Shown piece by piece: positions 59,728 to 62,645 of a DNA stretch of 64,000 bases; position 1 is the stretch's first letter, and each line of letters opens with the position of its first letter. The notes under the pieces are model-generated. The model saw only the letters and a program-made list of their open reading frames with translations. It did not search any database and was not told the origin of the DNA. The DNA comes from a virus. Taxonomy: Duplodnaviria > Caudoviricetes. Position numbers and translations under genes: made by a program. Where the stretch lies: positions 32,001 through 96,000 of IMG/VR virus record IMGVR_UViG_3300042997_002652. One strand, 5' to 3'.

Positions 59728-60078
59728 ATGAATATAAGACCTATATGTCCAAAATGTAATACATGTGTTTGTGCTATCAATTATAAGAAAAATAATGTGT
59801 ATCATTATAGAAGCACATGTAATAGCTGCGGTAGGAAAAAGCCCAGAAAAAAACCCAGAACTTTTCTTTGGCAAAAAAGCGGTTATAAGAAAAAAACAAT
59901 GTGTGACTTATGTGGATTTAGAAGTGTATACGCTACTCAAATAGTAGTGTACCATATCAACGGGGATTTAACTGATATTAAGTTAAACAATCTACGCAGT
60001 ATATGTTTATGCTGCGTAGAAGTTGTCAAAAGAAAAGAAGTGACTTGGAAGAGGGGAGATTTACAAGTTGACTATTAA
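59728..60078 (+). CDS. Zinc-finger / degenerate HNH protein
   Basis: CPKC, CNSC, CDLC, VYHINGD...NNLRSICLCC; TAAATA-N5-ATG. Confidence 0.7.
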   Translation: MNIRPICPKCNTCVCAINYKKNNVYHYRSTCNSCGRKKPRKKPRTFLWQKSGYKKKTMCDLCGFRSVYATQIVVYHINGDLTDIKLNNLRSICLCCVEVVKRKEVTWKRGDLQVDY

Positions 60079-60743: not shown

Positions 60744-61520
60744 TTAGCCTTGCACCCATGTCAGAGGTTGTGAATTATCAACATATCGTTTGAGTTCATC
60801 AATCAATTTCTCTATCATAGCATAGCCTTCACTTTTCATTGCTGCGCCGTTAAGTGATGTACCACCACTGGGTCCAGCAATAGTAGCAAACTTTTCTCTG
60901 GCTTCACCAATGATAGTTTTTAAAACCGCAAGTGTATAATCTTGAATCCAAGTACCAGTAGAAGGGTCTTGTAACAATGTAGCTTCAGGTCGCAGGATAT
61001 CCGCCCAAATAAGGATCTTTTCACCTGAACCCTTAAAATCACGAACTATTCTAAGTGTCTTAGATACAGGATCAAATGTATAAGTCAAGTAACCACCAAA
61101 CATTCTAGCAGCTAACTCAACATAACCAGCATAAAAATCGTAAGTAGCCAAGCCACCGGCAGAGTTATAATTAAGCAAGTAAGTATTTAATATCGCACTT
61201 GAAAATGGATCAAATGAGCTGGCGCCGGGGCCAGTTTCTAATCCAACTGTTCTACGGTATAAGCATCTTACATTAATAAATTCACTGGGAAGTGTATAAG
61301 TATCTACATTTTTTTCTATAGTAAAAAGTGTGTAAGTTTCCTGTGTGGAATTCTGCGCACGTTGTCTATATGTAGATATAGCATAATTATATGCTACTTC
61401 CAAGTGCTCAGGATCAACTTCAAGATCAATTATATTTTGACCTAATCTTAATAAACATGAATTAAATAATTGCTCTTTTAATTGAGTAAGATTAAGATTA
61501 GTTGGAATTGTTTGGATCAT
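60744..61520 (-). CDS. Neck protein (gp13-like)
   Basis: LRLGQNIIDLEVDPEH, EAREKFATIAGPSGGTSLNG; GATAAATA at 61547-61554. Confidence 0.8.
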   Translation of the reverse strand: MIQTIPTNLNLTQLKEQLFNSCLLRLGQNIIDLEVDPEHLEVAYNYAISTYRQRAQNSTQETYTLFTIEKNVDTYTLPSEFINVRCLYRRTVGLETGPGASSFDPFSSAILNTYLLNYNSAGGLATYDFYAGYVELAARMFGGYLTYTFDPVSKTLRIVRDFKGSGEKILIWADILRPEATLLQDPSTGTWIQDYTLAVLKTIIGEAREKFATIAGPSGGTSLNGAAMKSEGYAMIEKLIDELKRYVDNSQPLTWVQG

Positions 61521-61599
61521 TTTTCATGGTTCCTTTATGTTATAACTATTTATCTGGTTACATTTAGTTTACATGAAATAATTATTCTAAGGGCATGGC

Positions 61600-61975
61600 G
61601 AGTAGATATAAAATCTACAAGCCACGGGTTATTCTTGAGGTACTTAGGCAACGATGAATTCAAACATTACAGTGGAGGATTGTCTATGTCTCACTAACCC
61701 ATAAAGGGAGTTTGCCGTATTCGCTGTTAACGTTCAAACGCTATTCACCGAGGAGTTTGAACCAGCCCAAGAGTATCTATCGCAATTACCATCTCTTGGC
61801 AACAACAACCATTTAGACACAAGAAACGTTTCTAACAAGGGTTAGACGTTTATGGCATCCCTATTCGGGGTAGTCTTGTGAATGGAGTCACTGATTTTAC
61901 TCAGTTCAAGCTTAGACTCGCTTCTATACCCACACAACACGGATTGAGGTGGGACTTGGATGTTATTGTGGCTAA
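61600..61975 (-). ncRNA. Candidate large structured ncRNA (350-400 nt), family unassigned
   Basis: No credible ORF; about 43% GC by hand count (61621-61980); at least eight stems, including a 6 bp long-range closure. Strand inferred from flanking genes. Confidence 0.6.
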
Positions 61976-61998
61976 CACTTACCTTGCTTGATAAACAA

Positions 61999-62217
61999 TT
62001 ATTCTATAAGTTTAAATATCAAAAACAAATCTTTAAGGGGATGATTCCATGGATCTTTTACACCATATGCTGTACAGCCAAATCTAGTATCATCGTCTAA
62101 GTGATCTTTTCCTTTGGTATAGTTTTCCATGTCAATACAAGTAAGTACTGTACCTTCAGGAATCTTTGCTAATTCTTCTGGTGTAAAAAGATAAAGATCA
62201 TCCTCCCATTTTTGCAT
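61999..62217 (-). CDS. Hypothetical protein
   Basis: 72 aa; DDDTRFGCTAYG. Confidence 0.6.
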   Translation of the reverse strand: MQKWEDDLYLFTPEELAKIPEGTVLTCIDMENYTKGKDHLDDDTRFGCTAYGVKDPWNHPLKDLFLIFKLIE

Positions 62218-62645
62218 TATAAATCATTCTCTTTTCTATTTTCAGAATAGAATGGATCAAACGTGCCGCCAGGATATCTTGCTTCAAGCTTTTTAACGTT
62301 TTCAGCAATCACATCGTTTGGATCTAAACCTAATGCTCTGCAAGCATTGATCCAATACCAAATAATATCGCCTAGTTCACGTTTCATGTGGTAAACGTTT
62401 TCATCACTCAATTCTTTACCTTGAAAAATGATTTTTTTGTTTACCTCGATAAACTCTCCGCTTTCTGCTGCTAAACCCAAACATGCAGTAATCAGCAACG
62501 GAACATTTACTGCAGGCCCAGTTACATCTTCTTTATTTTGCGAATTTAGCTCTTCACACCTTTGCTGAAAAATGTGAAAATGATTGCTTGGGTTACTAGT
62601 TACAACCTCTACAAAATCTTTGTACTTGTTTAAATCAATATTCAT
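62217..62645 (-). CDS. mazG: MazG-like NTP pyrophosphohydrolase
   Basis: LGLAAESGEF..VNKK...ELGDIIWY (ExxE...ExxD), NVKKLEARYP. Confidence 0.85.
   Translation of the reverse strand: MNIDLNKYKDFVEVVTSNPSNHFHIFQQRCEELNSQNKEDVTGPAVNVPLLITACLGLAAESGEFIEVNKKIIFQGKELSDENVYHMKRELGDIIWYWINACRALGLDPNDVIAENVKKLEARYPGGTFDPFYSENRKENDL

What the first reader, a model, noticed from the sequence alone, without database searches (positions are those of the whole stretch)
61600..61975. Large unassigned structured RNA between the MazG operon and the neck gene
Seen: about 480 nt without a credible ORF in a gene-dense genome, about 43% GC, with many stems. Plus-strand coordinates: AGCCAC 61620-25/GTGGCT 61968-73 (long-range closure), GGGTTA 61626-31/TAACCC 61695-700, GTTCAAAC 61732-39/GTTTGAAC 61755-62, CCAAGAG 61767-73/CTCTTGG 61793-99, CACAAGA 61818-24/TCTTGTG 61874-80 enclosing two hairpins, GAGTC 61885-89/GACTC 61915-19 enclosing CTGA/TCAG, and GTAGAT/ATCTAC 61602-18. 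On the minus strand there are echoes of RNase P (ACGGCAAACUCC; CAAG-UC-CCAC able to pair with GUGGCUUG like a bulged P4) but the P1-P3 layout is missing. Inference: a novel phage ncRNA or ribozyme.
Basis: partly seen in the sequence, partly recalled or inferred. Interest (0 to 1): 0.75.

Follow-up and report, generated by a model that had tools for sequence, protein, structure and literature searches.

The report
New knotted RNA in jumbo phages
The gap between the MazG genes and the neck gene encodes a roughly 410-base RNA with four pseudoknots; about 90 uncultivated freshwater giant phages carry it, it matches no catalogued RNA family, and its job is unknown.

Summary
The finding is real. Window 61581-61992, read on the minus strand (the direction of the flanking genes), is a 412-nt non-coding RNA gene.

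- **Homologues:** at least 87 viral contigs carry it.
- **Covariation:** on 46 diverse copies, 97 proposed base pairs are 90.6% paired, against 34-44% when partners are slid. Seventy-one pairs change on both sides, and 0 of 500 shuffles reach this.
- **Fold:** about 18 helices, including four pseudoknots.
- **Strand:** G-U pairs outnumber A-C mismatches 154 to 48, which fixes the strand.
five of seven are confirmed by covariation. The two long-range closures and the RNase P echoes are not.
- **Known families:** no Rfam 15 family matches, including RNase P, tmRNA, group I/II introns, GOLLD, ROOL, OLE and HEARO. There is no conserved ORF, no copy in 185,579 prokaryote genomes and none in GenBank phages.
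- **Distribution:** it is an optional cassette in a hotspot between mazG and the neck gene of a jumbo myovirus clade. It was gained or lost at least six times, is absent from close relatives, and also occurs in other phage contexts.

The function is only inferred. Most likely it is a stable RNA acting in trans, as a protein- or ribosome-binding scaffold, or possibly a ribozyme, and not a leader of the neck gene.

The parts
61581..61992 (-). The whole RNA gene. The 5' end is at 61992 and the 3' end at about 61581 (412 nt in this phage; 380-440 nt in relatives).
   Evidence: These are the limits of conservation and pairing in alignments A1 and A2. G-U 154 against A-C 48 fixes the strand.
61907..61990 (-). 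5'-end pseudoknot. CAAGC (61990-61986) pairs with GCUUG (61911-61907) in the loop of arm H3. In most relatives the pair is UUGGUC with GACCAA.
   Evidence: helix 1: all 6 pairs change on both sides and 90.9% of cells are paired. The window-specific register was read.
61960..61983 (-). H-type pseudoknot PK1. Stem S2 is GUGUU (61978-61974) with AACAU (61964-61960). Stem S1 is GGU (61983-61981) with GCC (61972-61970), and is weak in this copy.
   Evidence: helices 2 and 3. S1 covaries AGGU/ACCU, GGGC/GCCC, AAGU/ACUU and GAGU/ACUC.
61929..61953 (-). Hairpin H2. CCCAC (61953-61949) pairs with GUGGG (61933-61929). Relatives have CCGUC with GACGG.
   Evidence: helix 4: 97.8% paired. RNAalifold finds it independently.
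61885..61919 (-). Arm H3, extended in this subgroup. GAGUC (61919-61915) pairs with GACUC (61889-61885). An inner hairpin is CUGA (61904-61901) with UCAG (61894-61891).
   Evidence: Sequence. The short form in relatives covaries GUG/CAC, GCG/CGC and GAUG/CAUC, but MAFFT aligns it poorly (helix 5).
61818..61880 (-). Three-way junction. P-a is CACAAGA (61880-61874) with UCUUGUG (61824-61818). It encloses P-b (61870-61868 with 61861-61859) and P-c (61850-61842 with 61835-61825). The junction words GACUA and AUGC are conserved.
   Evidence: helix 6: 7 of 7 pairs covary and 98.8% are paired. Helix 9: 7 of 9 covary.
61767..61799 (-). Hairpin P-d. CCAAGAG (61799-61793) pairs with CUCUUGG (61773-61767). 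Its 19-nt loop is conserved (AUGGUAAUUGCGAUAGAUA in this copy).
   Evidence: helix 11: 100% paired with 6 of 7 pairs covarying.
61723..61766 (-). P-f is GCUG (61766-61763) with CAGC (61726-61723). It encloses hairpin P-e, GUUCAAAC (61762-61755) with GUUUGAAC (61739-61732).
   Evidence: helices 13-15. P-f is 100% paired. All six pairs counted for P-e covary, some with up to five pair types.
61652..61750 (-). Pseudoknot PK-e. The P-e loop CGGUGAAU (61750-61743) pairs with AUUCAUCG (61659-61652).
   Evidence: helix 16: 98.4% paired with 6 of 8 pairs covarying. L145 keeps it with an unrelated sequence, CCGUGGUGG with CCGCCACGG.
61648..61783 (-). Pseudoknot PK-d. The P-d loop GCGA (61783-61780) pairs with UUGC (61651-61648), directly 3' of PK-e.
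   Evidence: helix 12: 95.7% paired. GUGAU/AUCAC in L133 and GUG/CAC in L094 and L101 are compensatory.
61661..61714 (-). Second three-way junction. P-g is CAAAC (61714-61710) with GUUUG (61665-61661). It encloses P-h (61708-61706 with 61700-61698) and P-i (61696-61692 with 61674-61670).
   Evidence: helices 17-19. P-g has 5 of 5 pairs covarying (CAAAC/GUUUG, AAAAG/CUUUU, UAACC/GGUUA, CAGU/ACUG).
61674..61690 (-). Near-invariant word GACAUAGACAAUCCUCC in the P-i loop. It holds a small GAC-AUA-GNC stem, followed by the unpaired segment CAAUCCUCC, which resembles an anti-Shine-Dalgarno sequence.
   Evidence: It is exact in 71 viral contigs. Variants found without using this word still keep CAAUCC(U/C)CC.
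61597..61623 (-). 3' hairpin P-z. The outer stem is GGC (61623-61621) with GCC (61599-61597). The inner stem is GUAGA (61618-61614) with UCUAC (61606-61602). The 3' strand AUAUCUACUCGCC is nearly invariant.
   Evidence: helix 21: 83.9% paired, with register shifts in MAFFT. Sequences with a 13-bp version were seen.
61581..61596 (-). Conserved 3' tail (CCUUAGAAUAAU here; GCCUAAGAAUAUC in most). It nearly repeats the word CCUCAAGAAU that lies 5' of P-z.
   Evidence: Alignments A1 and A2. No partner was found.
61548..61555 (-). GATAAATA, which resembles a T4-type late promoter. It lies between the RNA and the neck gene start, and is not part of the RNA.
   Evidence: The same word sits at the same distance from the ATG in relatives that lack the RNA. 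Its role as a promoter is inferred from T4 knowledge and was not tested.
60744..61520 (-). Downstream neighbour: the neck protein (head-tail adaptor Ad2, gp13-like).
   Evidence: PHROG 211, E = 1.9e-25. Annotated as a neck protein in PA5oct-like phages.
61999..62645 (-). Upstream neighbours: a 72-aa ORF (61999-62217) and the MazG pyrophosphatase (62217-62645).
   Evidence: Pfam PF03819 and PHROG 229.

Best explanation
**Shown.**
- Window 61992 to 61581 (minus strand) is a gene for a roughly 410-nt non-coding RNA. It belongs to a previously unclassified family found in uncultivated freshwater jumbo myoviruses.
- The RNA folds into a compact body of about 18 helices tied together by four pseudoknots:
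  1. Its 5' end is buried in the loop of arm H3.
  2. An H-type knot follows.
  3. The loop of hairpin P-d docks on the single strand AAUUCAUCGUUGCC.
  4. The loop of hairpin P-e docks next to it on the same strand.
- Two three-way junctions and a 3' hairpin complete the fold.
- Several loops and junctions are almost invariant, above all an unpaired CAAUCCUCC.
- It is an optional cassette in a recombination hotspot between the mazG operon and the late neck gene.

**Inferred.**
- It is made with or just after the mazG transcript.
- Its buried 5' end and its 3' hairpin would give it defined, protected ends.
- It acts in trans as a folded particle, most likely by binding a protein or the translation apparatus through its invariant unpaired segments, as a scaffold or decoy that helps the phage in some hosts.
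- It is not likely to be a leader of the neck gene.

**My odds.** A real structured RNA family that is new to Rfam: about 0.9. Trans-acting and not a cis element: about 0.7. A binding scaffold or decoy, as opposed to a catalyst: about 0.45.
For: **Homologues.**
- 71 real matches among 79 hits to the 17-mer in IMG/VR.
- 16 more from a pattern that does not use that word.
- 27 in metagenomes.

**Structure.**
- (35 sequences): 92.9% paired against 35-45% when slid.
- (46 sequences): 97 pairs, 90.6% paired against 34-44% slid. Seventy-one pairs change on both sides. The covariation score is 0.381 against 0.06-0.08, and 0 of 500 shuffles reach it.
- RNAalifold alone recovers seven of the helices.
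- Strand: G-U 154 against A-C 48.
- Some copies carry extra hairpins capped by GNRA tetraloops at two sites, as in large folded RNAs.

**Not coding.** The longest open stretches are short and not conserved.

**Not catalogued.** No Rfam hit on the element, no tRNA or tmRNA there, no match in GenBank phages, and only chance hits in prokaryote genomes.

**Independent of the neck gene.**
- Most relatives have only 36-69 nt between mazG and the neck gene, holding the same GATAAATA word before the ATG.
- The RNA was gained or lost at least 6 times on the neck-protein tree.
- It is absent from five RNA-less relatives, including a 92%-complete 333-kb genome.
- It occurs in other neighbourhoods in L094, L101, L136, L145, L224, L227 and L239.
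Against: - There are no expression data, and neither the 5' nor the 3' end has been mapped.
- In about 40% of copies a terminator-like hairpin ends 0-8 nt before the RNA. This leaves no room for a promoter of its own there, so how the RNA is made is unclear.
- No partner protein co-occurs next to it in all contexts.
- No target for the invariant loop exists in the phage genome.
- It always lies upstream of a gene on the same strand, so a cis role is not excluded.
- Covariation counts rest on MAFFT alignments and on related sequences. Part of the structure was drawn from the same alignment on which it was counted.
- A 2023 catalogue of more than 10,000 candidate viral structured RNAs (PMC10690425) may list it. 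Its tables could not be read.
Confidence: 0.6

Rival explanations
1. It is a large ribozyme. The knotted core with invariant junction nucleotides would be an active site, for self-processing at its own ends (which would explain a 5' end that starts right after a terminator or stop codon) or for acting on another RNA.
For: - Its size, four pseudoknots, two three-way junctions, optional GNRA-capped arms and near-invariant unpaired nucleotides match the profile of known large ribozymes.
- The 5' boundary is sharp and the first bases are base-paired into the fold (helix 1).
Against: - No similarity to any ribozyme family in Rfam.
- The order of helices fits neither group I, RNase P nor HDV-like folds (my own comparison of topologies, not a computed test).
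- Most large bacterial RNAs of unknown function have not turned out to be catalysts (general knowledge).
- Nothing was tested biochemically.
Confidence: 0.17
2. It is a cis-acting element of the surrounding operon. It could be a 3' UTR or insulator that stops or processes the early mazG transcript, or a 5' leader that controls neck-gene expression from read-through transcripts.
For: - It always has the orientation of its neighbours and always lies upstream of a co-directional gene.
- It sits at the border between an early-type and a late-type module.
- Terminator-like hairpins are often adjacent.
Against: - Close relatives with nearly identical neck proteins lack it and keep the same short promoter-bearing spacer.
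- The GATAAATA word lies between the RNA and the ATG.
- It occurs before unrelated genes in other phage types, at distances of 50-190 nt.
- About 400 nt with four pseudoknots and invariant loops is far more than known leaders or insulators need.
Confidence: 0.13
3. The functional strand is the plus strand. The invariant word read in reverse is GGAGGA-uugucu-AUG, a perfect ribosome-binding site and start codon, so the region would encode a tiny peptide or an antisense RNA.
For: The complement of the invariant loop is a textbook Shine-Dalgarno sequence plus AUG. By my rough estimate, chance alone would give this in a few cases per thousand.
Against: - The reading frame behind that AUG runs 3 to 59 codons and stops after 3 codons (MSH or MSR) in 15 of 35 copies.
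- G-U pairs outnumber A-C 154 to 48 in the minus-strand reading. These would be mismatches on the plus strand.
Confidence: 0.04
4. It is a reduced RNase P RNA, or a member of another known large family such as group I introns, tmRNA, GOLLD or ROOL, too diverged to be recognised.
For: Short word matches were recalled from memory: ACGGCAAACUCC against E. coli M1 RNA, and AAUUGCG, CAAUCC and GACUAC against the P, Q and R elements of group I introns.
Against: - No covariance-model hit at E <= 10 on the window or E <= 1 on eight relatives. ARAGORN finds nothing there.
- The alleged P4 strands each pair locally with covariation (helices 4 and 21).
- ACGGCAAAC varies, as GGAAAAG and GGUAAC, because it is one arm of helix P-g.
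- The group I-like words occur in the wrong order, and there is no P3-P7 topology and no exons.
Confidence: 0.02
5. It is not an RNA at all. It would be a decayed protein gene, or a DNA-level signal such as an origin, a packaging site or an attachment site for the cassette.
For: - It lies in a hotspot where relatives carry protein genes of 170-320 aa.
- Near-repeats flank the 3' hairpin (CCUCAAGAAU and CCUAAGAAU).
Against: - Compensatory changes that keep Watson-Crick and G-U pairing in 71 of 97 pairs, including loop-to-strand pseudoknots about 100 nt apart, are not expected of decayed coding sequence or double-stranded DNA sites.
- No ORF is conserved.
Confidence: 0.02

Closest known systems
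GOLLD and ROOL RNAs (Rfam; large ornate RNAs often carried by phages and prophages, shown by cryo-EM to form RNA-only assemblies, PMC12286853)
   Same: Both are large, heavily pseudoknotted, phage-borne accessory RNAs of unknown function. Both are found mostly in metagenomes (GOLLD first in lake water), and neither has an obligatory neighbouring protein gene.
   Different: There is no sequence or structure match. This RNA is shorter (about 390 nt against about 600-800). It is fixed in one syntenic hotspot and is not found near tRNA clusters. Nothing is known about oligomerisation.
Bacterial RNase P RNA
   Same: Similar length, long-range pseudoknots, and a few short shared words.
   Different: There is no model match. 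There is no P4 formed by conserved CR-I and CR-V strands, and no P1-P3 layout. The look-alike words are variable helix arms. ARAGORN finds no tRNA genes in this phage record, so it has no pre-tRNAs of its own to process.
Group I introns of T4-like phages
   Same: They are phage-borne, 250-400 nt without an ORF, pseudoknotted and optional between close relatives. A few short words resemble the P, Q and R elements (from memory).
   Different: This RNA lies between genes, after a stop codon or terminator, so it has no exons. It has no P3-P7 pseudoknot order and no Rfam RF00028 hit at E <= 10.
tmRNA
   Same: About 360 nt with four pseudoknots, and phages sometimes encode one.
   Different: There is no tRNA-like pairing of the two ends, because the 5' end pairs with an internal loop. 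There is no tag reading frame, and ARAGORN is negative at this site. ARAGORN does call a separate permuted tmRNA elsewhere in this genome.
phi29 pRNA (packaging RNA)
   Same: It is a phage-encoded structured RNA that acts in trans on the virion assembly machinery. Here the RNA sits next to a neck gene and, in other phages, near terminase genes.
   Different: There is no homology. pRNA is 120-174 nt and essential for its phage, whereas this RNA is dispensable among close relatives. Myoviruses of this kind are not known to need a packaging RNA. The link is by position only.
Candidate structured RNAs of viruses (csRNA catalogue, PMC10690425)
   Same: That catalogue was mined from the same IMG/VR data by covariation, so it may well contain this motif as an unnamed candidate.
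   Different: The catalogue entries are uncharacterised, and its tables were not available here. The paper's text mentions neither MazG nor a neck gene.

Membership tests
RNase P RNA (bacterial A/B, archaeal) | A match to the family covariance models | tested here: not met
   cmscan of all 4227 Rfam families found nothing at gathering score on the window. It found nothing at E <= 10 on 61400-62150, and nothing at E <= 1 on the element in eight relatives.
RNase P RNA (bacterial A/B, archaeal) | A P4 long-range helix between the conserved CR-I and CR-V strands | tested here: not met
   The proposed strands CAAGUCCCAC and GUGGCUUG each pair locally. CCCAC pairs with GUGGG in H2 (97.8% paired, covaries with CCGUC/GACGG). 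GGC pairs with GCC in P-z.
RNase P RNA (bacterial A/B, archaeal) | Conserved CR-III-like sequence (ACGGUAAACUCC) | tested here: not met
   The word varies among homologues (GGAAAAGUCC, GGUAACACCC, GGCAGUUCCC). This is because it forms the 5' arm of helix P-g, which covaries.
Group I intron | A match to RF00028 and the P3-P7 pseudoknot order (P3, P4-P6, P7, P3', P8, P7') | tested here: not met
   No hit at E <= 10. The helix order derived here has loop-to-strand pseudoknots and no P3/P7-type interleaving. The topology comparison is my own reading.
Group I intron | It interrupts a gene and has flanking exons | tested here: not met
   The element lies after the stop codon or terminator of the upstream gene and before the promoter-like word of the next gene. 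Sites without the RNA are plain 36-69 nt spacers.
tmRNA | A tRNA-like domain formed by the 5' and 3' ends, plus a tag reading frame | tested here: not met
   ARAGORN finds nothing in the window. The 5' end pairs with an internal loop (helix 1).
GOLLD / ROOL / OLE / HEARO / raiA and other large Rfam RNAs | A match to the family covariance model | tested here: not met
   Searches gave no hit on the element.
Riboswitch or other cis-regulatory leader | A constant link to the regulated downstream gene, with an expression platform that overlaps its terminator or ribosome-binding site | tested here: not met
   The downstream genes differ between contexts. The 3' hairpin has no U tract and lies 50-190 nt from the next start codon, with a promoter-like word in between.
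Guide or template RNAs of nucleases and reverse transcriptases (omega RNA, tracrRNA, retron and DRT ncRNA) | An adjacent effector gene and a variable guide or template segment | tested here: not met
   The neighbours are MazG, small ORFs and the neck protein, with no nuclease or RT family hit. The alignment shows no long hypervariable unpaired segment. The rest of the genome was not searched for RT genes.
New family proposed here (mazG-neck RNA) | The 5'-end pseudoknot, PK1, two three-way junctions, the PK-d/PK-e double docking, the CAAUCC(U/C)CC loop and the P-z hairpin with AUCUACUCGCC | tested here: met
   The window copy forms all of these. Only stem S1 of PK1 is weak.

The most novel reading that the evidence does not exclude
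This is a new class of large catalytic or self-assembling RNA carried by jumbo phages. It would be either a ribozyme whose multi-pseudoknot core processes itself or a host RNA, or an RNA-only particle like ROOL and GOLLD. The phage would use it as an accessory weapon, for instance against a host defence or the host's translation, with the exposed anti-Shine-Dalgarno-like CAAUCCUCC as its working surface.
Probability: 0.2. Interest if true: 0.9.

Novelty: categorically new. Interest (0 to 1): 0.8.

Why it matters
Large RNAs with this degree of conserved tertiary architecture are rare. The few with known functions are central machines such as RNase P, tmRNA and self-splicing introns. Those without known functions (OLE, GOLLD, ROOL, raiA) have each opened new lines of work.

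This one is compact enough, at about 390 nt, for chemical probing and cryo-EM. About 90 natural variants already define its fold.

It is an optional cassette in giant phages, swapped in and out of one hotspot. That points to a role in the phage-host contest carried out by RNA in place of protein. Working out what it binds or catalyses could reveal a new kind of viral accessory function.

Tried and rejected
**Structural ideas dropped**
- A pseudoknot between the H3 loop and the conserved GUUGA junction showed no change on both sides in any pair (helix 5). I replaced it with the 5'-end pseudoknot.
- Pairing of the 5' AGGU with the 3' GCC, suggested by RNAalifold, breaks in L094 and L101, where the local partner covaries.
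- Pairing of UCUUA with the 3' tail UAAGA is supported by the window but contradicted by L081, L097 and L138.
- The CCUAAG and UAUGG words are not an 11-nt tetraloop receptor, because UAUGG is in the canonical helix P-a.

**Searches that led nowhere**
- Single-sequence folding energy is uninformative (z = -1.8 and -2.1).
- BLAST against GenBank phages found nothing with either of two queries.
- The genome-contig scan gave 59 hits, all chance.
- No target complementary to the invariant loop exists in the window or the whole 267-kb phage record.
- Pfam and PHROG annotation of hotspot ORFs and of neighbours in the other contexts gave no shared partner.
- The promoter and terminator scan of the window found nothing above shuffles.

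**Literature**
- Two searches and two papers gave no description of this RNA.
- The supplements of the csRNA catalogue are not held.

**Not attempted**
- I did not build covariance models, because a full-length model would exceed the calibration time limit.
Full report
**What is in the window.** All genes around the finding lie on the minus strand:
- a 418-aa protein of unknown function
- MazG (62217-62645)
- a 72-aa ORF (61999-62217)
- a 478-nt gap (61521-61998)
- a neck protein, or head-tail adaptor (60744-61520)

The gap has no credible ORF. GC is 42% in the element against 36% in the window. ARAGORN finds no tRNA or tmRNA in the window. Rfam 15 gives no hit at gathering scores on the whole window. 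At E <= 10 on the gap it gives only a chance snoRNA match inside the neck gene. The fold energy of the single sequence is barely better than shuffles (z = -1.8 and -2.1), so the sequence alone proves little.

**The phage.** The window is part of a 266,967-nt virus record with 36% GC, and the element is single-copy in it. The neck protein's nearest cultured relatives are jumbo myoviruses, at only 38-39% identity: Agrobacterium phage Atu_ph07 and the Pseudomonas PA5oct group. MazG resembles the cyanophage MazG genes.

**Relatives.**
- A search with the neck protein in IMG/VR gave 588 related loci, of which 80 were fetched.
- In most of them mazG is followed after only 36-69 nt by the neck gene. 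That spacer holds a GATAAATA word, like a T4 late promoter, inside a small inverted repeat.
- A minority carry an insert at exactly this place. Some inserts are unrelated protein genes of 170-320 aa. Others are an ORF-less element homologous to the window's gap, at 71-96% identity.
- The 17-nt word GACATAGACAATCCTCC, invariant in that first alignment, retrieved 79 viral contigs. Of these, 71 are clear homologues and 8 are chance matches.
- A second pattern that avoids that word found 16 more, with slightly different loops.
- The metagenome collection added 27, all in the same context.
- The same word in one genome from each of 185,579 prokaryote species gave only the number of hits expected by chance, and none has the flanking structure.
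- GenBank phages have no match.

**Structure.** Compensatory changes are visible by eye in the alignments. I drew a structure on a 35-sequence MAFFT alignment (A1, all pairs of sequences at most 95% identical) and on a 46-sequence alignment that adds the divergent forms (A2).

| Measure | A1 | A2 |
|---|---|---|
| Pairs counted | 91 | 97 |
| Cells paired | 92.9% | 90.6% |
| Cells paired when partners are slid 1-3 columns | 35-45% | 34-44% |
| Pairs that change on both sides | 53 | 71 |
| Covariation score | 0.311 | 0.381 |
| Score when slid | 0.05-0.07 | 0.06-0.08 |
| Shuffles (of 500) reaching the observed values | 0 | 0 |

RNAalifold, run blind, recovers H2, P-a, the outer part of P-c, P-d, PK-e, P-h and P-i.

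There are caveats. The sequences are related. The structure was partly derived from the same alignment. MAFFT puts some variable arms (H3, P-e, P-z, inner P-c) out of register in some rows, which lowers their scores and does not raise them.

**Fold, from 5' to 3'.**
1. The first bases (UUGGUC in most copies, CAAGC here) pair with the loop of arm H3 about 80 nt downstream. All six pairs covary (UUAG/CUAA, CUGAC/GUCAG, CUGAUU/AAUCAG, UUGAUC/GAUCAA, UUGGC/GCCAA).
2. An H-type pseudoknot, PK1.
3. Hairpin H2.
4. Arm H3, which is extended in the window's subgroup.
5. A three-way junction: P-a encloses P-b and P-c, with conserved GACUA and AUGC joints.
6. A conserved joining strand, followed in 19 of 46 copies by an extra hairpin capped by GUAA or GCAA.
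7. Hairpin P-d, with a conserved loop of 17-19 nt.
8. P-f, which encloses hairpin P-e.
9. A second three-way junction: P-g encloses P-h and P-i.
10. A strand, AAUUCAUC(A/G)UCGCC, on which the P-e loop (8 bp) and the P-d loop (4 bp) dock next to each other. The 277-kb contig behind L145 keeps the first docking with an unrelated sequence, CCGUGGUGG with CCGCCACGG.
11. An optional GNRA- or UUCG-capped hairpin.
12. The word CCUCAAGAAU.
13. Hairpin P-z, whose 3' strand is nearly invariant.
14. A tail, GCCUAAGAAUAUC.

The P-i loop holds the most conserved word. The variants show a small GAC-AUA-GNC stem inside it, followed by an always unpaired CAAUCC(U/C)CC. Window coordinates of every helix are in the parts list.

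**Strand and coding.** In the gene-direction reading there are 154 G-U pairs against 48 A-C mismatches, so the RNA is read from the window's minus strand. No reading frame is conserved on either strand. The median of each copy's longest stop-free stretch is 59 codons, and these stretches fall in different frames and places. One oddity remains. The complement of the invariant word reads GGAGGA-uugucu-AUG, a perfect ribosome-binding site and start. The frame behind it stops after 3 codons in 15 of 35 copies and runs up to 59 codons in the others.

Five stems are confirmed: P-e, P-d, P-a, the GAGUC/GACUC arm with its inner CUGA/UCAG hairpin, and P-z. The long-range AGCCAC/GUGGCU and GGGUUA/UAACCC helices are peculiar to the window's closest kin, and both compete with local helices that covary. 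The RNase P echoes fail:
- CCCAC pairs with GUGGG next to it.
- ACGGCAAAC is the variable arm of P-g.
- No RNase P model scores.

I also followed a lead of my own, that AAUUGCG, CAAUCC and GACUAC recall the P, Q and R words of group I introns. I dropped it because the order is wrong, there is no P3-P7 topology, there are no exons, and there is no RF00028 hit.

**Cis or trans, core or accessory.**
- On a tree of 93 distinct neck proteins (52 with the RNA, 41 without), presence needs at least six gains or losses, three of them forced by well-supported branches.
- For example, L010 has the RNA while its near-identical neighbours L003, L007, L011 and L016 do not.
- Five RNA-less relatives, among them a 333-kb record judged 92% complete, lack it anywhere.
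- In L094, L101 and L136 the RNA lies about 2.3 kb upstream of a large terminase gene in a different kind of phage. In L145, L224, L227 and L239 it lies among unrelated small genes.
- The neck gene keeps its own GATAAATA word whether or not the RNA is present.

Together these points argue that the RNA is a self-contained accessory gene that moves by recombination at a hotspot, and not a regulator of the neck gene.

How it is expressed is open. It always has the orientation of its neighbours. In about 18 of 46 copies a GC-rich hairpin with a U tract ends 0-8 nt before the first conserved base. So it is either released from read-through transcripts or started from signals I could not recognise.

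**What it most likely does.**
- Shown: a conserved, compact, multiply knotted RNA with invariant unpaired segments, dispensable among close relatives.
- Inferred: a stable trans-acting particle. The buried 5' end and the 3' hairpin would protect it from exonucleases. The invariant loops and joints are the likely contact or active surface.
- Between a binding role (scaffold, decoy or sponge for a host or phage protein, or for Shine-Dalgarno regions via CAAUCCUCC) and catalysis, I lean to binding, at about 0.45 against 0.17. No ribozyme-like topology is recognisable, and most orphan large RNAs have not proved catalytic. This is a weak preference.
- No complementary target exists in the phage genome, and no neighbouring protein is shared across contexts.

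**Novelty.** There is no Rfam 15 family, no GenBank phage and no prokaryote genome copy. I found no description in the literature searched. The 2023 catalogue of candidate viral structured RNAs may include it anonymously, and I could not check. In architecture it matches no known class, so I rate it a new class of large structured phage RNA.

Noticed in passing
G000:C1 168987-169409 (complement), outside the window: ARAGORN calls one permuted (two-piece) tmRNA with the tag ANDEFALEDIRLAA in this phage record, and no tRNA genes at all. I did not verify the call with Rfam.
   Followed up: no
window 61674-61690, plus strand: The complement of the RNA's most conserved word reads GGAGGA-ttgtct-ATG, a textbook ribosome-binding site and start codon. 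The frame behind it is 3 codons (MSH or MSR) in 15 of 35 copies and up to 59 codons in others. This is unexplained. It could be chance, or the loop could mimic or target a translation start region.
   Followed up: partly
Hotspot between mazG and the neck gene: L008, L011, L018, L024-L027, L037, L052-L054, L014, L015: Where relatives lack the RNA, the same spot often holds unrelated ORFs of 170-320 aa with no Pfam or PHROG family. A 172-195-aa group (L037, L054, L018, L014) shares a DLP..L.LEIKTRK stretch that looks to me like a PD-(D/E)xK nuclease motif. The L052 ORF hits the N-terminus of sialyltransferase family GT29 (E = 3e-14).
   Followed up: partly
L010, L041, L044, L057, L064 and many L08x-L15x loci, just upstream of the RNA: A small ORF with the motif W(H/Q)KWFAW(Y/H)P(V/I)K..., ending in ...YEYGT(I/V)FD(V/L)LT, often sits between mazG (or the 72-aa ORF) and the RNA. 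In the loci looked at, it and the 72-aa ORF were seen only where the RNA is present. The RNA also occurs without them.
   Followed up: partly
Spacers before the neck gene in L003-L080, and window 61546-61557: The word GATAAATA lies inside a short inverted repeat (for example TTTCCTGATAAATAC...ATCAGGAAA) about 25-30 nt before the neck gene's ATG in nearly all relatives. It looks like a late promoter embedded in a hairpin.
   Followed up: no
L099 9274-9351 (minus strand): There is a clean hit to the Rfam family freshwater-2 RNA (RF02980; 56.5 bits, above the gathering score) elsewhere on a 137-kb contig that also carries the new RNA.
   Followed up: no
window 59728-60078 (plus strand): A 116-aa cysteine-rich ORF lies on the opposite strand between the dNMP kinase and the 1189-aa structural gene. 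Its ...HINGD...N..R..C..C stretch looks by eye like an HNH endonuclease, but Pfam and PHROGs give no hit.
   Followed up: partly
window 61636-61645 and 61585-61593 (minus strand); A2 columns around 503-513 and 583-593: The words CCUCAAGAAU and CCU(A/U)AGAAU form a near-direct repeat on either side of the 3' hairpin P-z. The 5' start AUUGGUCUAUAGGU also resembles UUUGGCUUGUAGAU just before P-z. No pairing partner or role was found.
   Followed up: partly
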